The translations under genes and the position numbers were made by a program. A DNA stretch of 64,000 bases, from the IMG/VR virus record IMGVR_UViG_3300037245_001837, positions 10,396 through 74,395 of that record, one strand, 5' to 3'. The DNA is from a virus. Numbering within the stretch: the first letter of the stretch is position 1; every line of letters begins with the position of its first letter. The notes beneath the pieces were generated by a model. That model searched no databases and was not told where the DNA came from. It saw only the letters and a list, made by a program, of their open reading frames with translations. Positions 14,797-63,692 of this stretch are shown here, in pieces.

Positions 14797-15864
14797 CAAA
14801 CTAAAATTAAAAAGTAGTTATGGCGATATATGTAGGCAATAAAAAAATTAATGAGATCAAGTCAATTTCAGTTGTTCACGACGTACTGGAAGAAATTTTA
14901 ATGAGTGAAGCTGAATTCCTTGAGGATAGACCTGAATTTTGGACAGATGAACAAAAGGAACTTTACGACTTATTGAACACCTTAAATCAAAGGGTTATAG
15001 AAAAGGCAATTGAAATAATTGAATCACGAAAACAGTAGTTATGACAAAGGACGAATTAATCACAAAGCAGCAACTCCAGATAGAAGAGTATAAAAAAACT
15101 ATCGAATCTAACAACGAGCTAAAGAAAAAGATAATAAGTAAATTCTATAGTATAGGACAACCATTAAACGACAACATATTAAACATGGATAAAAAGCAAA
15201 TGGCATGGTGTTTTGAAGTAGTGGAATTATCTCAGCAAATAAACCAAAACTAGACGATATGAAACAAGCATTTGTATTTTACGCATGGTTCCAAGGCTCT
15301 AGTGATTTCGAACCTTTTATTGCAAGAGTATTGGATAACACATCGAATCCTAATTCATGGAGAATAGACAACCATGATAAAACCTATATGTTTGCACTAA
15401 AAGAAGCCTACATAAAGGAAGCAACGCATGACGAGATAAATATCCATGTCAATCGTAAATCTAATTAAACAGTAGTTATGTCAAATACTTTCCAAATATG
15501 GCTTATGAGCCAAAAATATTACAGAAAAGAAGGATCATTGCTTTGGTATAGAGATAATTTATTAGTGAAAGCGAAAGAACTTTCTGGAAAATTAAGGGAA
15601 TTTAAAAACATTAAACAGTAGTTATGGAAAACACTAAGAATTACAAAAAAATAGCCAATTACATCAAAAAACAAGGTTATACATGGACTGTTGAAGATGC
15701 AATCGAGTTGTATAAGAAAAAGGAAAATGGGGAGTACATAAGTTATACAGCAAATGATATTGTTGGTCGTTTTCCAGAAGAAATAAAATCACTAATACAG
15801 TAGGTTAAACAGCGATCCTACTATTTAAGAAAATCGCTTAAAACTTAAATAACAAATAAAAATT

Positions 15865-30023: not shown

Positions 30024-33000
30024 ATGGGAAAGCAACAAAAAAGACCACCGTTAAAATTAGTTGGAGAAGAAAGACCTCCACTTAATTTGATAGGCGTAAA
30101 AAAAAAAGTTGGATTAGAACAGGAAGATACCACATTACCTTTGGAAGTATCTCAATCGGATACATCAATACCTCAATTGGTTGGGTCTTTGGAATCTCAA
30201 ACATCGACTCCAGAAATACCTATTAAAGAACCTGAACCTGAATCTAAAGAAGATGGATTTGGTTCTGAATTATTTAGAAGCCTACAAAAAGGGTCAGCTA
30301 GATTAGGAAGAGATATTGCATCAATTCCAGAACTAGTATTTGATGTATTCGCTGCCCCACAAAATTTCATAGCTGAACAATTTGGAATAGAAAATTTAGC
30401 TACTAATTCCGAAAGACTAAAAACTGATTTAAATATAAAAAACTCCATAAAAGATTATTACGCAGGTGATATAGAAAGATTAAACAAATTATCTGAAGAA
30501 CTTGACAGAAAATATATTGGTGGTATTACTGATAACTTTAAAGCAGGTAATATTGGTGATGGATTTAGAATACTTGGTAATAGTTTAGCTGAATCATTAC
30601 CTTCTACATTATCAATCGCATTTGGAGGTGCAGCTACAAAAGCACCTCAATTATTAGGAGCTGTTACAGCTACATTTGCAGCAGGTAAAAACGCAGAATT
30701 AAAATCAAATCCAGATATAACAAATAATATAAGAGTTTTAAACGCACTTGGAACTGGATTAGCAGAAGGTGTTTTCTCAACAATTGGAACAGGTAGAATT
30801 GGTGTTGCTGCAAAAGAATTAATAGCGAAAGAAGGAGTTGAACAAGGTGCTAAGATTTTAAAGAAAAACTTAATTGATATTTATACAGAACTACTTAAAA
30901 AGTATCCTATACCAACAGCAATGCTTGGTGAAGGTCTGGAAGAATCTACAACTCAAATTACTCAAAATGCCATTGATAAATATACAGGCGTAAGTCCTGA
31001 TATTAATTTAATGCAGGGTGTATCAGATGCTTTTATTTTAGGTGTTGGTTCTGGTGGAGCATTTGGTACTGCATTAGAAGGAATAAAAAAAATATCAAAA
31101 GAAAAAACAACAAAAGAAGATGTTGAAGTTGTTGAAAGTTCAATTGAAAAAAGAAATGTTTTAGAAGAGGAACTTAATCAGCAAATTAAAGAAGGTGAAA
31201 TACCAAATCAATTAGCTTCTGAAACAATTGCTAATTTTGATGAGATCAGAAAGCAATTACAAGCAATTCCAAAAGATTATACTTCTGATGAAAAGGCAAT
31301 TGCCATTGATTTATTAAAAGAGAGAGCAATTATTGAAAGTGAAATGGAAGGACTTGACGAGAGCCTTTTAGGTATTAGAATATCGCAAATTGCAGAAATA
31401 AATGAAGAACTTAGAAATATTAAAAAACCACAAGTAGAATCTACTGTATTGGAACAAACAACTGAATTTGCAAATGAATTAGGTACTCCTGAAGATATTT
31501 CAGATACAGTTGCAGGAGCTACTAGCGTAAAAGTTGGTGATACAGAGATAATACTAAAGTCAGAAGGTGATAATATTGTTTTAGAGAGTATTCGTACCGA
31601 TGAAGATAAAAAAGGTCAAGGAAGCGCTAGAAATGCCTTAGATAAAATAACAGAAGTTGCAGATGCCCAAGTTAAAACTATCGAATTAAAAGTTGTTCCA
31701 GAAACAGATTCCACAACGGAAGAAGGATTAATAAGTCTTTATGAGAGTGTTGGATTTGTAAAAGACGGAAATAAAATGGTTCGTGAACCAAAAACAGAAG
31801 ATACATTTTCTAATATTGATAAAGTTATAGATGAAACAACTACTGAAACTACCCAAGAAACAGAAGTCGATGAAGTTCTTTCTGAACAAAATAAAAAAGC
31901 TCAAGAGCAAAAAGAAACAACCGAAGTAACAAAAGTTGCTAAAGATGTTAGATCATTATACAATATACACAGAGATTTATTCGAGTTAGACAGAGTTAAA
32001 TCTTTCGCAAGTGCAACAGTAACCGATAGGATTATTACCACTATGGCAAAAAGGCAAGGTATTAGTAAAGCAGAAATGTATGCTAAAATTGATTTTAAAA
32101 AAGGAGATTCCAATACAATTGACAAACTAAATAAAAAAGGAAAAGCTTTATTCCAAATAGTAGGTGAAAATGCTTTATTAAAGGAGCAGTATAAAAATAA
32201 CCTGCAATTAGCGAAAGAACTAGATGGAGAAGGAAAAACATCTGAAGAAATTTGGTTCAGTACAGGTTGGGAAAAAGGTACTGATGGTAAATGGAAAACT
32301 GAAATTGATGATTCTAAAATGGAATTAGATGGTGATCTTATAAATTTACGACAATATAACCTTAGTGAAGCTATAAAATATGATGCTTTATTTGAAGCAT
32401 ATCCTGAATTAAAAGATATTAAAATTTCTTTTTCGCACAGATTAGGGAATCTGTTAGGTGTTTATATGCATGACAGAAATCGAATTGTTATTAACAGTGA
32501 ATTAAGCGTGAAAGAAACACGATCTACATTACTGCATGAAATACAACATGCCGTACAGAAGAAAGAGGGTTTCGCTGCGGGTGGATCAGCCGTTATAGCA
32601 TCTAACTACTTAAATCAAAAAATACGTGCTATATCACTATCTAAAAATTTACCAACAGGACTTATTAGAGTAGCTAAGAAACTAAATAAAAAAATGTTTG
32701 AAGGTGTTGATATAAACGCTACAAAACAAGAATTTACAAAAGAAGTAGAAAAAGCGAAAGGTCAATTAAGTAAAGAAGAATTTGAACTATATAGTAGTAT
32801 CGCAGGTGAAGTAGAGGCAACAAACGTAGAGACACGTATGGATTTGACAGCCGAACAAAGAAGGACAACACCACTATCTCAAACAGAAGATATAGCAAGA
32901 GAAGAGCAGATAGTGTTATTCCAAAAATCACAAGGAGCGATGTTAGTAGAGGACGGTAAATTTATTATTTACGCACTAACAAATCCAAATGTATCTACAC

Positions 33001-37751: not shown

Positions 37752-38087
37752 ATGGATACGGATTACAAAAAAAGATTAAAACGACACATCAAAGCGTTGG
37801 ATACCGCTTATGAAAATATAATAACAATTTTAGAAGAGGATGTTAAAAAGGAGTCTAAAAAAGAGGGGGAAGATGAAAAAATAGCTCTAAAAGATGATAA
37901 AATTAAGACCTATGCAGATGGGTTGGAGAAGGCTGCTAAAACAGCAAATTACCTTTTAACTGAAATTAAAACTAAACAAGAAGAGCTAGATTTATTGAAT
38001 AAACCTAAAAAAAATTCTAAACAAGTAGAAGATGAAGAAGTTATCGAAACTACTCAAGATCATCAATTAGAAAAACACTTAGAATAA
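37752..38087 (+). CDS. Putative terminase small subunit
   Basis: 111-aa helical protein translationally coupled to large terminase. Confidence 0.55.
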   Translation: MDTDYKKRLKRHIKALDTAYENIITILEEDVKKESKKEGEDEKIALKDDKIKTYADGLEKAAKTANYLLTEIKTKQEELDLLNKPKKNSKQVEDEEVIETTQDHQLEKHLE

Positions 38088-40363
38088 TGGAAAATAGAGA
38101 TCGTAGCTACAGGGGAGATATTGCCGAAAAACTAAATATTTTTGATCTAGTTCCAAAAGTTATTTACAACAAAAGAAACGCTGATAAAAGTTGGAAGTAT
38201 AAAAAATATCCAGATATTGACCCTAATTTTATTTGCGTATCAAAAGACGGTACAATTGGAAATATTTATAAAGTTGGAGAGCTTATTATAGCAGTTCCAT
38301 CTCAAGAAGGAAAAGAAATTTTAAATATAGATACTCCTTCAAATGAAGCTAAATGGAAAAGAACACCAATACCAGAAGGTTTTCTAAAACTTGAAGAAAA
38401 TTACAGAAAAGACATTGGAGAATCTGCAAACCATAAAAAAAGAGATGTACGACAAAAATACAAAACAGACCGTAAAAATCTTATTTCAAAACATATCAAA
38501 TTTATAGATAATGAATTCGATAAAAGAAAACACGGTTTATTTATAAAAATTGATGAAGAAATTCTATACTTAACTGGAAGTGCGTATATGTTTTTAAACT
38601 ACTACTATCTTACCGATAGTGATATGTATCCATTATTCAGAACAACATCATTATACACTTGGCTACATTGGGAGGCAGTAAAAGCCGATAAAGATGTTTT
38701 TGGTGAGCTAAGATTTAAAAGTAGGCGTGTTGCTTGGACTTCTGAAGCTGCTAGTGAAGCTCTAAACACAGTAACTATTTTAAAATACGCTAATATTCCA
38801 GTAGTTTCAGAACGTAAAGAATTAGCCGAAGAATTATTCCAATCAAAAATAATTGACTCTTTTAAATATTACCCTACTTATTTCAAACCAATAATAAGTG
38901 ACCCTAATACTTTAGAAAAAAAGAAGCTTGAATTAACGCATAATACGGCTCAAAAAGAAACTGCAAGGATAAAACTATACCCAACAAAAGTAACAGCCTA
39001 TGATAGTACTAGGGTTAAGTCATTCGCTATTAACGATGAGGTTTTTAAACTTGAAGATGTAGATTTCACAGCATTTAGATCAAGGCATAAAAGATGTTAT
39101 AATAAAAGTAAAAATTTACACCCTAAAGGAAAGTTTGGTTCAACTGTTGGAGATAAAAATATAAACACAGAAACAGCAAGATACGAATGGGAAAATGCAA
39201 ATCCTTTAAAAAGAGATTTAACAGGAAATACAAATACAGGTCTAATCGCATTATTTGTAGATAATTGCTATACTGATGCTGAAAATGGGATGTTTGACGG
39301 ATGGGGTTATCCAATTATTAACAACCCACAAAAACCAATTCTAAATGAAATTGGAGATATTGTTGAATTTGGTTCTATTACATTATGGAAAATGGAAGAG
39401 GATAAAATGAAAAAAATGAAAAAAAGCGATTTAAATTCATTTTATAGAAACAGTCCAAGATTAATTGAACACGCTCTAAGAAATGAAGGAGGGATAAATA
39501 ATGATTTCGATGCAGATAATTTAAATAATCACGTTGACCATTTAAATTCAATTCACGAATTAGATTGGACTGATATAATTTATAGAGGTAATTTAGCTTG
39601 GACAGGTGAGCCTTATAAATCTGATGTGGAGTGGAAGCCAAACACTAAAGGTAAAATATTCACAACTTGGCTACCACCTAAAGAACTCCAAAATAAATCA
39701 TCAATTAGAGAGTTTCATGGTAAACAATTAAAAATGCCTGATAATAATCATATAGCCTGTTTAGGAGTAGATAGTTATGATTTAGTTGGTAAAGCTGCTA
39801 GTGGAAAGGGTTCTGACGGTGCTTTTACAGGATACTCTAAAATGAGTATGACAGGATGCCCTAGTCACTCATTCTTTTTAAAATATAAAGATCGCCCAGA
39901 CAAAAGAGATGATTTTTATGATGATGTCATAATGACTTGTCAATACTTTGGTATTTTCGCCTTAATTGAAAGTAACAAAGGTCGTATTTTAGAGTATATG
40001 TACGATAAAGGATTTACAGGATATGCTATGAGAAGGCAAGATAAAAAATGGAGAGATTTATCAGATGCAGAAAGATTATATGGTGGAATGCCAACATCAA
40101 AAGAGGTTATTGCTGACCAAGCTAGTTTATTGAAGGATTACATCATGGATAATGTTGGTCAAAATTTAGATAATGAATGTAAAGTATATTTCAAAGACTT
40201 AATTACAGAGTGGATTGCATTTAAAGTTGATAAAAGAACTGAATTTGATTTAGCTGTTGCTAGTGGATTTGCTATTATGGGAAGTCAGTACAAAGTTAAG
40301 ATGAGAAAAGTTCCACCCATAAACCCAGAAGGTGGATTAACGTTATCTTCATTCGGAGCTTAA
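38087..40363 (+). CDS. terL: Terminase large subunit
   Basis: YLTGSAYMFL, KSRR, INDE, FGST, GVDSYD, IESNK, FDLAVASG (crAss-like terminase motifs). Confidence 0.88.
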   Translation: MENRDRSYRGDIAEKLNIFDLVPKVIYNKRNADKSWKYKKYPDIDPNFICVSKDGTIGNIYKVGELIIAVPSQEGKEILNIDTPSNEAKWKRTPIPEGFLKLEENYRKDIGESANHKKRDVRQKYKTDRKNLISKHIKFIDNEFDKRKHGLFIKIDEEILYLTGSAYMFLNYYYLTDSDMYPLFRTTSLYTWLHWEAVKADKDVFGELRFKSRRVAWTSEAASEALNTVTILKYANIPVVSERKELAEELFQSKIIDSFKYYPTYFKPIISDPNTLEKKKLELTHNTAQKETARIKLYPTKVTAYDSTRVKSFAINDEVFKLEDVDFTAFRSRHKRCYNKSKNLHPKGKFGSTVGDKNINTETARYEWENANPLKRDLTGNTNTGLIALFVDNCYTDAENGMFDGWGYPIINNPQKPILNEIGDIVEFGSITLWKMEEDKMKKMKKSDLNSFYRNSPRLIEHALRNEGGINNDFDADNLNNHVDHLNSIHELDWTDIIYRGNLAWTGEPYKSDVEWKPNTKGKIFTTWLPPKELQNKSSIREFHGKQLKMPDNNHIACLGVDSYDLVGKAASGKGSDGAFTGYSKMSMTGCPSHSFFLKYKDRPDKRDDFYDDVIMTCQYFGIFALIESNKGRILEYMYDKGFTGYAMRRQDKKWRDLSDAERLYGGMPTSKEVIADQASLLKDYIMDNVGQNLDNECKVYFKDLITEWIAFKVDKRTEFDLAVASGFAIMGSQYKVKMRKVPPINPEGGLTLSSFGA

Positions 40364-40425: not shown

Positions 40426-42819
40426 ATGAGTGATTTAACACCTACATTTCCAGATGATTTTGCCAGTAATGCGGAAAAAAGCAGCTTGGAATACGGAAGA
40501 AAAATTGGTGAAGCTATTGATGTTCAATGGTTTAACAATCAGCTATCAAATAGAAGAATTTGGATAGATGAAATGAGAAGTTATTCAAGAGGTGAACAAG
40601 ATACTTACCAATATAAGAAAACAATTGAAGGTGAAAAGAAGAATCGAGAAAACAGTAATGCAGGAATTCGCACACATAAAATTGATTATGTTACATTAAA
40701 AATATTACCTTCTTTTAAAGATATTGTCATAAACCCAATTGATGAGGAATTATTTAAACCAAGAGCTGAAGCAATTGATATTTCTGCTGTTAATAAAAAA
40801 AAGGATTTCTTTAAGAAATTAGATAAACAATTTTTCACAAAAGAATTCTCAGACATAATTAATGAAGGTGTAGGTATTAATTTAAACCCTGCTAATGCAC
40901 CAAAGAACGAAAAAGATTTAAATAAAAAAAAGATAGAGTACAAACCTAAAATAGAAATTGCTCAAGAATTAGCTATTGAGAATGTTTTAAAGTTAGAAAA
41001 TTTTGAATCTGTAAAAGATAAAATAAATGAAGATTTATTTGATTTAGGTTTCGGAGTTGGGAGACACTACACAGATTATAATGAGGGTATCAAAATAAAA
41101 TATGTTGATCCTTACAATTATATTCACAATACTTTCCAAACAGATGACGGTAGAGATATTCGTTATCATGGTATTGTTGAAAAAGATACTATTTCAGGGT
41201 TAATAAAATTAGTTGGAGGAATCAGTAAAGAAAATAAAGATGCTTTAAAAAATGGAGCTGTTGGAGTTTATGAAGGTACTGATGCTTATATTGATGAAGA
41301 AGATGGAAGTAGAATGATTGAATATATTAATTTTTCATATTTAATTGGTGAAGAAAAAATATTTAAGAAATTAAGAAAAAATAAATCAACTAAATTAGTT
41401 GATAGATCGAAAGACGGTTATAATCCTGCAAATCCAAATAAAAAATTCACTATTCCTTATCAAGTATGGTATGAAGGTGTTTATGTTCCTTCTGCTAAGA
41501 TAATTCTACAATGGAGAAAGATACCAAATCAAGTTGAAAAAGAAGTAAATAAGCCGATTTCTCCATTTATTATTTATGCTCCAAAAGTTAAAAGATTATC
41601 TGAAAAAGGTAGCGTAAGATTTGATAGTTTAGTTAATAGAGCAAAGCCTATAATTGATGATATTCATAGAGATTGGTTCAAGTTCCAACAATTAAAAATG
41701 GAGCTAAGACCGAATACTACGGAAATAGATGTTGATGCTATTAATGATATAACTTTAAATGGAACTCCTGTTGCTGCACAAGATGTTTTAGATTTATTTT
41801 TTGGAAGAAGTTTATTATTAAAAAGAGGATTAAATGATGATGGAGAAGTATTACCAAGAGCAATTCAAGAAAATGCAGGAGGTATAAATAATACAGCACT
41901 TACTTTTTTATCAGGTGAGTTTGCAAATAACCTTAATAGGTTAAGACAATTATTAGGAATTAATGAAATTCGTGATGGTGCTGCAAAACCAAATAGTAAA
42001 ACTGCTGTTACAGTTCAAAAACTGCTTTTAGCAAGTTCCAATAATCAAACTAGTCATATTGTTAGAGCGAGTTTCCAAATATCACTAAAATTTGCTGAAA
42101 GTATTTCTTATAGATTGTACGATGTACTCACAACACCTGCATTAAAAAATAGATATTTAAGTATTATTGGAAGTAATAATGTTGAATTGTTAGATGAAAT
42201 AAAAGAATTGCCAATGCATAAATTTGGTATTTATTTCGACTTCAAGCCAGATAATGAAGAAAGACTTGCTTTTGAGAATTCATTATTAAACTCTTACAAT
42301 AAAGAAGAAATTGATGTTGCCCAATATAATATAGCCAGACAAATTAGAAATGCAAAAAGTGCTATAAAATATTTAGAAATAATTATTGAAGATAATGCTA
42401 AAATAGAGCAAGAACAAAAAATTCAAAATATTGAAGCACAAGCGAGAGCTAATGCACAACAAAGCGTTTTAACAGAGCAGACCAAACAACAAACGATAAC
42501 TGTTCAATGGGATGTTAAACAGCAAGAAATGTTACTGAAATCTCAAATTGATGAAAGGGCATCTAAACAAGAGGCATTGACAGATGATTTATTAGCTCAA
42601 AGACAACATGAAAGAGATATTGAATTAGAATTTATTAAATCTGGAACAAAAAAAGAAATTGAAGCAGGAAAAGAAATAGCCAGAAAAGATAGGATAGACC
42701 AGACAAGCACAAATACTTCTGCAATAGCAGACCAAAAATTGAACAAGAAGCAACCTATAGATTTTGAGAACAAATTATCAGGTATATTTGAGAATAACGC
42801 ATTACCAATAAATCAATAA
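40426..42819 (+). CDS. Portal protein
   Basis: FP...EK.S.EYG, RSYSRGEQ, YKPKIEIAQE, YVDP, GINEIRDG, FGIYFD motifs; C-terminal coiled coil. Confidence 0.88.
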   Translation: MSDLTPTFPDDFASNAEKSSLEYGRKIGEAIDVQWFNNQLSNRRIWIDEMRSYSRGEQDTYQYKKTIEGEKKNRENSNAGIRTHKIDYVTLKILPSFKDIVINPIDEELFKPRAEAIDISAVNKKKDFFKKLDKQFFTKEFSDIINEGVGINLNPANAPKNEKDLNKKKIEYKPKIEIAQELAIENVLKLENFESVKDKINEDLFDLGFGVGRHYTDYNEGIKIKYVDPYNYIHNTFQTDDGRDIRYHGIVEKDTISGLIKLVGGISKENKDALKNGAVGVYEGTDAYIDEEDGSRMIEYINFSYLIGEEKIFKKLRKNKSTKLVDRSKDGYNPANPNKKFTIPYQVWYEGVYVPSAKIILQWRKIPNQVEKEVNKPISPFIIYAPKVKRLSEKGSVRFDSLVNRAKPIIDDIHRDWFKFQQLKMELRPNTTEIDVDAINDITLNGTPVAAQDVLDLFFGRSLLLKRGLNDDGEVLPRAIQENAGGINNTALTFLSGEFANNLNRLRQLLGINEIRDGAAKPNSKTAVTVQKLLLASSNNQTSHIVRASFQISLKFAESISYRLYDVLTTPALKNRYLSIIGSNNVELLDEIKELPMHKFGIYFDFKPDNEERLAFENSLLNSYNKEEIDVAQYNIARQIRNAKSAIKYLEIIIEDNAKIEQEQKIQNIEAQARANAQQSVLTEQTKQQTITVQWDVKQQEMLLKSQIDERASKQEALTDDLLAQRQHERDIELEFIKSGTKKEIEAGKEIARKDRIDQTSTNTSAIADQKLNKKQPIDFENKLSGIFENNALPINQ

Positions 42820-61439: not shown

Positions 61440-61748
61440 ATGAAAACAGCAACTATAAAAATATTACTTTATTCTATTTCAGAACTACAGGAGCAACCAA
61501 AGGATATAGCTATACAGGAACACGAAAATTTTTTAGTGTCTCAGGGCATGGAAATTGAAAACGAAGAAGGAAAACTTGAAAATATACCGTACAACCCAAC
61601 AAAGGAAGAAATTATTGAAAGTATAGAAATTAACGATTATTTATTTTTTAAAAATGGAGACATGGCTAACTGTACTACTTTTGTAGGCAATCATCCAAGA
61701 GCAGGTAAAACAGTATTAAACTTTAGAGGTTCAGAGTACGAAATTTAA
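61440..61748 (+). CDS. Conserved phage early protein
   Basis: LYSISEL...KDIAI...IIESIEINDYLF..NG motif. Confidence 0.65.
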   Translation: MKTATIKILLYSISELQEQPKDIAIQEHENFLVSQGMEIENEEGKLENIPYNPTKEEIIESIEINDYLFFKNGDMANCTTFVGNHPRAGKTVLNFRGSEYEI

Positions 61749-61760
61749 AATTATTAAAAT

Positions 61761-61835
61761 AATCGATTGAGCGATTTAAAAAAGGTTTTTAAGCTCAAAG
61801 CGTTGGACAGGTTTTTTATTCCTGTTCAGGTAAAC
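61761..61835 (+). ncRNA. Pistol self-cleaving ribozyme
   Basis: P1 AATCG/CGATT, pseudoknot TTGAG/CTCAA, AAA linker, P2 GTTT/AAAC, TTAAG, AGCG, P3 TGGACAGG/CCTGTTCA, G-G|T cleavage site. Confidence 0.88.
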
Positions 61836-61850
61836 ACAAAAATATATATT

Positions 61851-62360
61851 ATGTTCAAATTAGATGTTATTTATTATAAGGAAAATGCAAAGGTTATAAA
61901 ATTAGATCATAATTGCAAAACTGAAAACGGAATTACACCAGAGGAACAATTTAAAATCGTTGAAATTATAGGAGACTACGAACAACTAAAAATCGAAAAC
62001 CAATACCAACAACAATATATAATAAATTCTAACCAGATACAGGAGCCAACACAAAAAGAAAGGTTTTTTATTGAATGGGAAAATGTTACACTTATTAAAA
62101 TATTTGAAACGAAAGTAATTGACAACCGAACAAAAGAAAATGATTATATAATTTTTAGTATTGCTATTGATGAAGAAAAGGAAAATTTTACAGCTCAACA
62201 CGTAGGATTGACAAAAGAAGAAGAGCAGAGCAATAAAATATCGTTTAAAAGTATTGATATTGATTTTGATTTTAGTATTGACGAACACCTGCAAGAATTA
62301 CACGAAGAATGCCAAAACGCAATTTTACAAAGTGATATTTTTACACTTGCAGAAGATTAA
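61851..62360 (+). CDS. Hypothetical protein (true start probably ATG 61851, not TTG 61767)
   Basis: Upstream part of the track ORF is occupied by the pistol ribozyme; A-rich leader before ATG. Confidence 0.7.
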   Translation: MFKLDVIYYKENAKVIKLDHNCKTENGITPEEQFKIVEIIGDYEQLKIENQYQQQYIINSNQIQEPTQKERFFIEWENVTLIKIFETKVIDNRTKENDYIIFSIAIDEEKENFTAQHVGLTKEEEQSNKISFKSIDIDFDFSIDEHLQELHEECQNAILQSDIFTLAED

Positions 62361-62397
62361 AAAGAAATTATAAAAACAACATCTAAATATATATATC

Positions 62398-63057
62398 ATG
62401 AAAACATTAAACCATAGAGAACCAAAAACAATCACAAACGACATACAAACCTTTTTAAAAGATTATAAATTTATAAAAAAGGAGTTTTTAAACGATCCTA
62501 AATATTTGGAGTTAAAAAAAGAACTACACGAAAGCCAAAACGCATATAAATTTAATGCAATGTATTTATTTATAGAGGCTCAAAACATTGTTAACAATCA
62601 TTTAAACAAATTACAGCCAGAATATGAAAAAATAATAAATAATATTTTAGGTCAAAAATTTGAAAATATGGATTGTAGCCGTAACCATAAATTAAAAAAT
62701 ATTTTTGATCATATAGAAGGTGTAAAAACAAAAGAGCTTAAAAATTATAGTTACAGGATAACAACCTCAACAGCCAGAAGCTATAATAATTTTATTTTAA
62801 CGGTTGATGTTTATATATGGAATGGATCAAATAACGCACGATACAGCGATACAAAATATATAGCAAAATTTGAGAATCAAACCAGTTTTTGCGGATTTTA
62901 TGAGGCACACAAATTTGAGACTTTTAATGTAAAAACAGAATTAAAAAAGCTGAAAAAGTACGAAGCCGAAAAAAAGAAATTTGAAGAGCTTAAAAGCAAA
63001 CTAAATAATCCTTTTATGAGCCAATTTTTATTTAATTTTAATAGAGACCAATTTTAA
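62398..63057 (+). CDS. Hypothetical protein
   Basis: ORF track. Confidence 0.7.
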   Translation: MKTLNHREPKTITNDIQTFLKDYKFIKKEFLNDPKYLELKKELHESQNAYKFNAMYLFIEAQNIVNNHLNKLQPEYEKIINNILGQKFENMDCSRNHKLKNIFDHIEGVKTKELKNYSYRITTSTARSYNNFILTVDVYIWNGSNNARYSDTKYIAKFENQTSFCGFYEAHKFETFNVKTELKKLKKYEAEKKKFEELKSKLNNPFMSQFLFNFNRDQF

Positions 63058-63059
63058 AA

Positions 63060-63401
63060 ATGAAAGAGACAGCCAACACACAAACCGAAAACACAAGATT
63101 TACCGATTATATGAATAAATCATTAAAATTTAGAACTCAATTAAATAAATACATGAGTTCCAGAGGTGAAGATTTAAGCATAAAAGTAAGCGTTTTTAAT
63201 TTACTTGATAAAGTAGATCATAAAAGCGAAAAAAACCAAGAATTTAGAAACGAGTTTTTTAAATGGTTAAGCAATGCAAAAGGATACAGCACAATAAAAT
63301 TAAGAGAATTTTGCAAAATCGTTGACGTTGACTACTGGCGAAGCTTAAAAGAATCTAATGTTATAGATGTTTTTGATTCGTGCAGTTGCTTAAATAGCTA
63401 A
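63060..63401 (+). CDS. Hypothetical protein
   Basis: ORF track. Confidence 0.65.
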   Translation: MKETANTQTENTRFTDYMNKSLKFRTQLNKYMSSRGEDLSIKVSVFNLLDKVDHKSEKNQEFRNEFFKWLSNAKGYSTIKLREFCKIVDVDYWRSLKESNVIDVFDSCSCLNS

Positions 63402-63468
63402 AAACCAACACAAAAAAACAAGAAAAAGCAATTTTGCAGCAAAACACCAAAAAGCCAACATTATGAAA

Positions 63469-63555
63469 TAGTTAAAAAAATATCGAAATAGCCAATTAAC
63501 AACTGGCTATCGTGTAAAACGTGTTGAAATTTGCACCTGATGAGCAACACAACTA
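63469..63555 (+). ncRNA. Type II hammerhead ribozyme with 1-bp stem II and pseudoknot
   Basis: C-GAAA, stem III TAGCCA/TGGCTA, ATC cleavage triplet, stem I GTGTAAA/TTTGCAC, CTGATGA-G, loop I GTGTTG pairs with 3' CAACAC. Confidence 0.9.
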
Positions 63556-63572
63556 ATTTAAAAAAATATATC

Positions 63573-63692
63573 ATGAAAGATTTACAAATATTAAAACAGT
63601 TATTAAACGGGCATCATTTAGAACCTAAAGAAATAGAACAGGCAAAGAAGGTTTTAAACAGATTAAATATTGAATTAAAAAACAGGTTATAA
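63573..63692 (+). CDS. Small hypothetical protein (39 aa)
   Basis: MKDLQILKQLLNGHHLE..., downstream of hammerhead. Confidence 0.6.
   Translation: MKDLQILKQLLNGHHLEPKEIEQAKKVLNRLNIELKNRL

What the first reader, a model, noticed from the sequence alone, without database searches (positions are those of the whole stretch)
63469..63555. Type II hammerhead with a single-base-pair stem II rescued by a 6-bp pseudoknot
Seen: intact core CTGATGA(63537-43) and GAAA(63485-88); stem III 63489-94/63504-09; AUC triplet (cut after 63511); 7-bp stem I. Stem II is just G63544-C63484, but loop I GTGTTG(63521-26) is perfectly complementary to CAACAC(63545-50), and TAGTT/AACTA closes the unit. Established: short-stem-II pseudoknotted type II hammerheads occur in phages. 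Simple descriptor searches that need a long stem II miss them.
Basis: partly seen in the sequence, partly recalled or inferred. Interest (0 to 1): 0.72.

Follow-up and report, generated by a model that had tools for sequence, protein, structure and literature searches.

The report
Type II hammerhead ribozyme in phage
This is very probably a real self-cutting hammerhead RNA between two small genes of an uncultured marine-sediment phage, but its unusual build (one-base-pair stem II held by a six-base-pair pseudoknot) was described and tested in 2011, so it is an ordinary new member of a known class that standard annotation misses.

Summary
The stretch 63484-63550 (+) has all the invariant hammerhead core bases in the type II order. 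It has 7-bp stems I and III, a single G10.1-C11.1 pair as stem II, and a perfect 6-bp pseudoknot between loop I and the bases right after G10.1.

Chance does not explain it. No full structure appeared in 300 shuffled windows, and about 1 in 200,000 simulated core pairs was as good. The pseudoknot alone has p=0.0075.

Rfam Hammerhead_II scores it 26.1 bits, below the cut-off of 37, so routine annotation misses it. Ten other RNAs, fetched by a pattern that left stem I and the pseudoknot free, show the same architecture with different sequences (nine distinct, eight of them in the covariation count). Two of them pass Rfam's cut-off.

The element is intergenic, on the gene strand, 1.7 kb downstream of a canonical Pistol ribozyme. 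No ortholog or RNA data were found, so cleavage is inferred.

The TAGTT/AACTA "closing" helix is no better than chance.

Perreault et al. 2011 already characterised a type II hammerhead with a one-bp stem II and a six-bp pseudoknot. Verdict: a new member of a known kind, of low to moderate interest.

The parts
63484..63550 (+). Type II hammerhead ribozyme, minimal unit from C11.1 to the end of the pseudoknot strand
   Evidence: Direct reading. Rfam RF02276 scores 26.1 bits over 63481-63553. A model built without this sequence scores it 52.6 bits; that score is biased by how the other sequences were found.
63484..63488 (+). C11.1 followed by G12 A13 A14 A15.1 (CGAAA)
   Evidence: Aligned to the CGAAA of RF02276.
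63488..63510 (+). Stem III hairpin: 7 bp (63488-94 with 63504-10, including A15.1-U16.1) and a 9-nt loop at 63495-63503
63511..63511 (+). C17. The predicted cut is between C63511 and G63512.
   Evidence: Its position relative to the core. The cleavage itself is inferred, not shown.
63512..63536 (+). Stem I hairpin: 7 bp (63512-18 with 63530-36, one G-U) and the 11-nt loop I at 63519-29
   Evidence: All 7 stem I pairs covary across 9 architecture-matched RNAs.
63537..63544 (+). Core C3 U4 G5 A6 U7 G8 A9 plus G10.1 (CUGAUGAG). G10.1 pairs with C63484 as the only stem II pair.
63521..63526 (+). Pseudoknot strand in loop I (GUGUUG)
   Evidence: Perfect 6-bp complement of 63545-50; p=0.0075.
63545..63550 (+). 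Pseudoknot strand (CAACAC), starting at position 10.2 directly after the single stem II pair
   Evidence: This is the location Perreault 2011 describes, 'immediately downstream of stem II'.
63469..63473 (+). TAGTT, proposed outer closing helix with AACTA at 63551-55
   Evidence: The complementarity is present, but it is no better than chance (p about 0.6). It is probably not part of the ribozyme.
61761..61835 (+). Pistol ribozyme (context). The predicted cut is between G61830 and U61831, 20 nt before the ATG at 61851.
   Evidence: RF02679 scores 58.1 bits against a cut-off of 34.5. The cut site is inferred from the aligned GU linker and from my own knowledge of the family.
61851..63401 (+). 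Three-gene block bracketed by the two ribozymes: ORFs 61851-62360, 62398-63057 (phrog_33743) and 63060-63401
   Evidence: All are of unknown function.
63573..63692 (+). First ORF downstream of the hammerhead (39 aa), starting 61 nt after the predicted cut
   Evidence: It has no family match.

Best explanation
The stretch 63484-63550 encodes a functional type II hammerhead self-cleaving ribozyme inside a rightward polycistronic phage transcript.

How it most likely works (all inferred):
- Once the CUGAUGA block and the CAACAC tail are transcribed, stems III and I and the single G10.1-C11.1 pair form the three-way junction.
- The 6-bp pseudoknot between loop I (GUGUUG) and the bases right after G10.1 stacks on that lone pair. 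It stands in for a longer stem II and holds stems I and II parallel.
- The 2'-OH of C63511 then attacks its 3' phosphate.
- The upstream RNA ends in the stem III hairpin with a 2',3'-cyclic phosphate.
- The downstream RNA starts at G63512 with a 5'-OH and keeps the stem I/pseudoknot fold ahead of the 39-aa ORF.
- Together with the Pistol ribozyme at 61761-61835, cleavage would release a 1,681-nt three-gene message (61831-63511). That would uncouple its stability and translation from the neighbouring small genes.

Shown: the sequence, the structure potential, the statistics, the architecture shared with other hammerheads, and the genomic setting. Inferred: cleavage, dependence on the pseudoknot, and the biological role.
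For: - All invariant core bases and the G-S-C block order are present.
- Hammerhead_II is the only ribozyme family that hits here: 26.1 bits, E 0.0027 locally and 1.4e-4 per genome.
- Chance is excluded: 0 full structures in 300 shuffles, about 5e-6 given a core pair, and pseudoknot p=0.0075.
- Patterns fixing only the core and the base of stem III retrieved further type II hammerheads from viral, metagenome and genome collections: ten RNAs, nine distinct. They have a 6-7-bp stem I and a 4-7-bp pseudoknot between loop I and the tail, each with a different sequence.
- In the nine-sequence alignment (the window plus eight of them), 7 of 7 stem I pairs covary, 99.3% of cells pair, and 0 of 500 shuffles match.
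- Pseudoknots combined over 5 lineages give p=2.6e-5.
- Two of the retrieved RNAs pass Rfam's cut-off: L037 (Calothrix) at 39.4 bits and L023 at 38.0.
- L031 has the same layout as the window: 7-bp stem I, 2-nt linker, pseudoknot from position 10.2, then an AAA linker.
- The element lies in a 171-nt gap between ORFs on the gene strand and 1.7 kb from a 58-bit Pistol ribozyme. A related phage carries three Pistols within 2 kb.
- Published precedent (PMC3088659): a one-bp stem II with a six-bp pseudoknot cleaves at more than 1.2 per min at 0.5 mM Mg, and ribozymes commonly flank short gene blocks in prophages.
- Type II hammerheads near phage genes cleave in vivo in Desulfovibrio vulgaris (PMC8782182).
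Against: - The Rfam score is below the gathering cut-off (26.1 against 37).
- No orthologous copy was found. The two nearest phages (TerL 52-55% identical) lack it, so there is no covariation within true orthologs of this locus.
- The comparison set was chosen to share 23 bases with the candidate, so its model scores are inflated.
- Stems I and III are A/U-rich.
- The nested hammerhead fold (-12.0 kcal/mol) is no more stable than a competing fold that uses the pseudoknot helix as a hairpin (-12.8).
Confidence: 0.85

Rival explanations
1. It is a decayed or very slow hammerhead relic. The sequence descends from a ribozyme, but the one-bp stem II, the weak A/U stems or a competing fold leave it with little activity, and it has no current role.
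For: It is missing from the two nearest relatives. It is below Rfam's cut-off. An alternative fold of equal energy exists.
Against: No core base is altered. Both 7-bp stems and a perfect 6-bp pseudoknot are intact, which is unexpected under neutral decay in a 34% GC spacer. The same minimal stem II is active in a published case.
Confidence: 0.1
2. It is a chance look-alike. An A/T-rich spacer happens to contain CGAAA and CUGAUGAG with hairpins between them.
For: Short helices are common in A/T-rich DNA, as the outer helix at p=0.6 shows.
Against: The expected number per window is about 0.05 x 5e-6. The element also has the right strand, an intergenic position and a Pistol ribozyme nearby.
Confidence: 0.02
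3. The hairpins act mainly as something other than a ribozyme, for example a transcription terminator or an RNA-stability hairpin, and the core motifs are incidental.
For: The scan finds one terminator-like site here, made of the stem III hairpin, but on the minus strand (63511-63487 followed by a T-run).
Against: All genes nearby are on the plus strand, and on that strand no T-run follows either hairpin. This reading does not explain the intact 13-base core or the pseudoknot.
Confidence: 0.03

Closest known systems
[quoted passage not shown] 2011, PLoS Comput Biol, PMC3088659, Fig. 4)
   Same: Both are type II, with stem II reduced to a single pair. Both have a 6-bp Watson-Crick pseudoknot between loop I and the bases right after stem II. 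Both come from environmental or phage-like DNA. In that RNA the pseudoknot was shown to be needed for fast cleavage at 0.5 mM Mg2+.
   Different: The sequences could not be compared because the figure is not held. This RNA is untested. Stem I and linker lengths may differ, and the paper says activity is sensitive to these.
Rfam RF02276 Hammerhead_II family
   Same: Same core, same block order (GAAA, cleavage site, CUGAUGA), stems I and III closed by loops, a short stem II (2 bp in the model) and a 3' tail that pairs with loop I.
   Different: It scores 26.1 bits against a cut-off of 37. It is A/U-rich, has a longer loop III and a 1-bp stem II. Similar low-GC members (L021, L029, L031) are not reported by the model.
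Low-GC metagenomic and viral type II hammerheads found here (L031:434-493, L029:743-802 minus strand, L021:8815-8872)
   Same: All have a 7-bp stem I and a 1-bp stem II (2 bp possible in L031). The pseudoknot starts at position 10.2 to 10.4. L031 also has the 2-nt and AAA linkers. All sit on the gene strand downstream of an ORF.
   Different: Stem I and pseudoknot sequences are unrelated. Those three lie 2-15 nt after the stop codon of the upstream ORF, while here the gap is 82 nt. The flanking proteins are not homologous to those of the window.
Ribozyme pairs and clusters flanking short gene blocks in prophages (Perreault 2011; Weinberg et al. 2015 as cited in PMC4604425)
   Same: Two self-cleaving ribozymes sit 1.7 kb apart on one strand and bracket three small phage genes of unknown function.
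   Different: Here the pair is mixed, Pistol plus hammerhead. The published figure examples are mostly hammerhead with hammerhead. No role is known for either arrangement.

Membership tests
Hammerhead ribozyme, type II (RF02276) | Conserved core C3 U4 G5 A6 N7 G8 A9 | tested here: met
   CUGAUGA at 63537-43.
Hammerhead ribozyme, type II (RF02276) | G12 A13 A14 and the A15.1-U16.1 pair | tested here: met
   GAAA at 63485-88; A63488 pairs with U63510.
Hammerhead ribozyme, type II (RF02276) | Cleavage-site nucleotide 17 is not G and follows U16.1 | tested here: met
   C63511.
Hammerhead ribozyme, type II (RF02276) | G10.1-C11.1 pair closing stem II at the core | tested here: met
   G63544 pairs with C63484. 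It is the only stem II pair, since 10.2/11.2 is C-U. A one-bp stem II has a published active precedent.
Hammerhead ribozyme, type II (RF02276) | Three-way junction with stems I and III closed by loops and stem II open (block order GAAA, site, CUGAUGA) | tested here: met
   Stems I and III have 7 bp each, and the order is 63485, then 63511, then 63537.
Hammerhead ribozyme, type II (RF02276) | [quoted passage not shown] | tested here: met
   GUGUUG pairs with CAACAC, 6 bp starting at position 10.2, p=0.0075. The definition comes from PMC3088659.
Hammerhead ribozyme, type II (RF02276) | Score at or above Rfam's gathering cut-off (37 bits) | tested here: not met
   26.1 bits. This is a curators' threshold rather than a biological feature. 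The model does not score the pseudoknot and leans towards G/C-rich members.
Hammerhead ribozyme, type II (RF02276) | Helices supported by covariation among homologs | tested here: inconclusive
   No ortholog of this locus was found. Across architecture-matched hammerheads, stem I covaries at 7 of 7 pairs, but homology of those RNAs to this one is not established.
Hammerhead ribozyme, type II (RF02276) | Site-specific self-cleavage giving 2',3'-cyclic phosphate and 5'-OH ends | not testable with these tools
   No RNA run is available for this DNA. A biochemical assay is needed.

The most novel reading that the evidence does not exclude
The candidate may belong to a coherent A/U-rich subclass found in phages. 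Its features would be stem II reduced to the lone G10.1-C11.1 pair, the pseudoknot helix starting at position 10.2 and stacking on that pair as a stem II supplied by loop I, and fixed short linkers. Current Rfam models systematically miss such RNAs. In this phage the hammerhead would work as one half of a mixed Pistol-hammerhead pair that cuts out a defined three-gene message with a 5'-OH and a cyclic-phosphate end, as a protein-free way to set that message's fate.
Probability: 0.3. Interest if true: 0.45.

Novelty: new member of a known kind. Interest (0 to 1): 0.25.

Why it matters
It adds one well-formed, unannotated ribozyme to an uncultured marine-sediment phage. It also fixes the local annotation: the TTG/ATG ORF starts at 63531 and 63540 lie inside the ribozyme, so the gene most likely starts at 63573.

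It gives a concrete example, with three similar cases (L021, L029, L031), of low-GC type II hammerheads with a minimal stem II that Rfam's Hammerhead_II model does not report. That is useful for rebuilding the model.

The mixed Pistol-hammerhead pair around a three-gene block is a small, clean system for the still-open question of what self-cleaving ribozymes do in phage transcripts. The architecture itself has been known since 2011, so it does not change what is known about hammerheads.

Tried and rejected
- Relatives through the flanking proteins (113 aa and 219 aa) in viral contigs: none.
- Relatives through the large terminase: two phages at 52-55% identity, neither with a hammerhead by RF02276 or by my model R1. 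Cellulophaga phage phi4:1, which shares the 219-aa protein family, has none either.
- A pattern fixing the pseudoknot strand (CGAAA..TC..CTGATGAGCAACAC) gave 13 hits, all coding-like chance matches with no stems.
- Of the 11 metagenome hits to the stem III pattern, L024, L026 and L028 do not fold as hammerheads. Of the 2 genome hits, L038 does not.
- Other hammerhead copies in the 74-kb genome: none. The next best hit, 31190-31260 at 17 bits, lacks C3 and C11.1 and lies inside a large ORF.
- Other ribozyme classes in the window or in the first 10.6 kb of the record: only the Pistol.
- RNA evidence: no RNA holder is listed for this DNA. There are only two marine-sediment DNA runs, one of them the likely source. 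Read laying was not used because contigs of DNA runs cannot show RNA ends.
- The sequence of the published one-bp stem II construct could not be retrieved. The figure is not held, one supplement search timed out, and the first part of the primer table did not contain it.
- A formal column-wise pseudoknot count with the count of structure pairs was not possible, because the pseudoknot starts at different tail offsets (10.2 to 10.6) and MAFFT does not align it. A per-sequence shuffle test was used instead.
- tRNA association: none in the window or in L021, L025, L029 and L031.

Full report
**Setting.** The window is bases 10396-74395 of a 74,395-bp IMG/VR virus record that CheckV rates as complete. 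The record has a 127-nt terminal repeat. It is a tailed phage: a large terminase lies at 38087-40363 and a portal protein at 40426-42819. Nearly all genes are on the plus strand. Its only DNA similarity in the phage collection is a weak match to Cellulophaga phages. The DNA is held by a marine-sediment metagenome run.

**Observation.**
- C63484 (position 11.1) is followed by GAAA at 63485-88.
- Stem III is 63488-94 with 63504-10. It has 7 bp, counting A15.1-U16.1, and a 9-nt loop.
- C63511 is position 17.
- Stem I is 63512-18 with 63530-36. It has 7 bp, one of them G-U, and an 11-nt loop.
- CUGAUGA is at 63537-43 and G10.1 at 63544.
- Stem II is one pair, G63544-C63484. The next positions are C-U and A-A.
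- GUGUUG (63521-26) in loop I is the exact complement of CAACAC (63545-50), which begins at position 10.2.
- TAGTT (63469-73) is the complement of AACTA (63551-55).

**Is it more than chance?** Yes.
- In 300 dinucleotide-preserving shuffles of the window, CGAAA and CTGATGAG co-occurred at a usable spacing 0.05 times per window. None had both stems.
- With the core fixed at the observed spacing and the rest drawn from a first-order Markov model of the window, 1 of 200,000 sequences had stems of at least 7 and 7 bp and a pseudoknot of at least 6 bp. Ninety-one had at least 5, 5 and 5.
- The pseudoknot alone beats 99.25% of shuffles of its own loop and tail.
- The outer TAGTT/AACTA helix does not stand out. 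Helices that long arise in about 60% of shuffles. I do not count it as part of the element.

**Family searches.** At Rfam's gathering thresholds the window has one hit, a Pistol ribozyme at 61761-61835 with 58.1 bits. With relaxed thresholds, Hammerhead_II (RF02276) aligns end to end over 63481-63553. It scores 26.1 bits against a cut-off of 37, with E 0.0027 for the local search and 1.4e-4 for the genome. The Rfam model does not score the pseudoknot.

**Related sequences.**
- The flanking proteins have no relatives in IMG/VR.
- The two phages nearest by terminase (52-55% identity) have no hammerhead. One of them carries three Pistol ribozymes within 2 kb. So there is no ortholog to give covariation at this locus.
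- A pattern fixing the pseudoknot strand returned only coding-like chance hits.
- A pattern fixing only the core and the first pairs of stem III returned L021 from the viral collection, 11 stretches from metagenomes and 2 from genomes. Ten of these 14 (nine distinct sequences; L030 repeats L023) fold as type II hammerheads, although stem I and the pseudoknot were left free.
- In the nine-sequence alignment (the window plus eight of them), 99.3% of cells pair and all seven stem I pairs show changes on both sides. No shuffle or slid register comes close.
- Each lineage has its own pseudoknot of 4-7 bp between loop I and the tail (and for L037). Combined over five lineages, p=2.6e-5.
- L037 (Calothrix) and L023 pass Rfam's cut-off at 39.4 and 38.0 bits. 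This ties the set to the curated family.
- The low-GC members L021, L029 and L031 are not reported.
- L031 matches the candidate's layout closely: a 7-bp stem I, a 2-nt linker, a pseudoknot from position 10.2, then AAA.
- L029 and L031 are orthologous loci, since their upstream ORFs are homologous. Their stem I sequences differ by three compensatory swaps.
- A model built without the window scores the candidate 52.6 bits. That figure is inflated because the set was chosen to share 23 bases with it.

**Context.**
- The ribozyme sits in a 171-nt gap between the stop of a 113-aa ORF (63401) and the ATG at 63573 of a 39-aa ORF, on the gene strand.
- The ORF starts listed at 63531 (TTG) and 63540 (ATG) fall inside the ribozyme. 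The ATG at 63540 is the AUG of CUGAUGA.
- From the aligned GU linker, and from my knowledge of the family, the Pistol's predicted cut is between G61830 and U61831. That is 20 nt before the ATG at 61851.
- The two ribozymes therefore bracket three genes of unknown function, one of them phrog_33743. Cutting at both would give a 1,681-nt message.
- No plus-strand terminator lies nearby. The only terminator-like site is the stem III hairpin read on the minus strand.

**Mechanism (inferred).**
- Because the order is GAAA, cleavage site, CUGAUGA, the core is complete only after base 63544 is made. The tertiary lock is complete at 63550.
- The pseudoknot helix begins right after G10.1, so it can stack on the lone stem II pair and act as its extension. 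This holds stems I and II side by side, which fast hammerheads require.
- The cut after C63511 would leave the upstream message capped by the stem III hairpin and a cyclic phosphate.
- The downstream message would begin with a 5'-OH and the stem I/pseudoknot fold.
- The nested hammerhead fold (-12.0 kcal/mol) and a competing hairpin made from the pseudoknot strands (-12.8) are close in energy. In the real fold the two are compatible.

**Comparison with what is known.**
- Perreault et al. 2011 (PMC3088659) discovered natural type II hammerheads and reported several relevant points.
- Most have a pseudoknot of at least 4 bp between loop I and the bases immediately downstream of stem II.
- Stem II is often two pairs, and in one case a single pair.
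- For that case (their Fig. 4) they showed that shortening the six-bp pseudoknot to four cut the rate about 20-fold. Removing more cut it over 100-fold, and compensatory changes restored it.
- They also noted ribozymes flanking short gene blocks in prophages.
- The association of hammerhead, twister and Pistol ribozymes with phage genes and with each other is the basis on which Pistol was found (PMC4604425).
- Type II hammerheads near phage-like genes cleave in vivo (PMC8782182).
- The candidate keeps the classic G-S-C order. It is not one of the non-circular permutations described in PMC10085705.

**Verdict.** Activity and pseudoknot dependence remain to be shown. It is a new member of a known kind. 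Its main value is as an annotation fix and as evidence that Rfam's model under-detects low-GC members with a minimal stem II.

Noticed in passing
window 61761-61835 (+): A canonical Pistol ribozyme (RF02679, 58.1 bits against a cut-off of 34.5) fills the gap between ORFs 61440-61748 and 61851-62360. The TTG-start ORF listed from 61767 is probably mis-started, and the real start is likely the ATG at 61851.
   Followed up: partly
G002:C1:29251-31133 (loci L004-L006), minus strand: A related phage (IMGVR_UViG_3300027852_000809, TerL 52% identical) carries three Pistol ribozymes (54-70 bits) within 1.9 kb. Ribozyme clusters therefore recur in this phage group, even though the hammerhead does not.
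   Followed up: no
L031:434-493 (+), L029:743-802 (-), L021:8815-8872 (+): These are low-GC type II hammerheads with a 1-bp stem II (2 bp possible in L031), lying 2-15 nt after the stop codon of a 133-160-aa ORF and followed by a long gap without ORFs. Rfam's Hammerhead_II did not report them. L029 and L031 are orthologous loci with three compensatory swaps in stem I.
   Followed up: partly
L031:931-976 (+): A tRNA-model hit just under the cut-off (28.5 against 29 bits) in only 46 nt, about 440 nt downstream of that contig's hammerhead. ARAGORN finds no tRNA there.
   Followed up: partly
L022, L023, L027, L030, L032: A G/C-rich family of near-identical type II hammerheads on five short metagenome contigs. 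One pseudoknot pair changes from U-G (tail CACCGA) to U-A (tail CACCAA in L027). Rfam scores run from 33 to 38 bits, straddling the cut-off.
   Followed up: partly
window 63540-63542: The AUG inside the CUGAUGA core is in frame with the downstream 39-aa ORF, which produces a spurious 50-aa ORF call (63540-63692). It is probably coincidental.
   Followed up: no
window 15160-15324 (-): A near-threshold Rfam hit to the Listeria sRNA rli49 (38.5 against 40 bits, E 0.003), unexpected in a marine phage. It was not examined.
   Followed up: no
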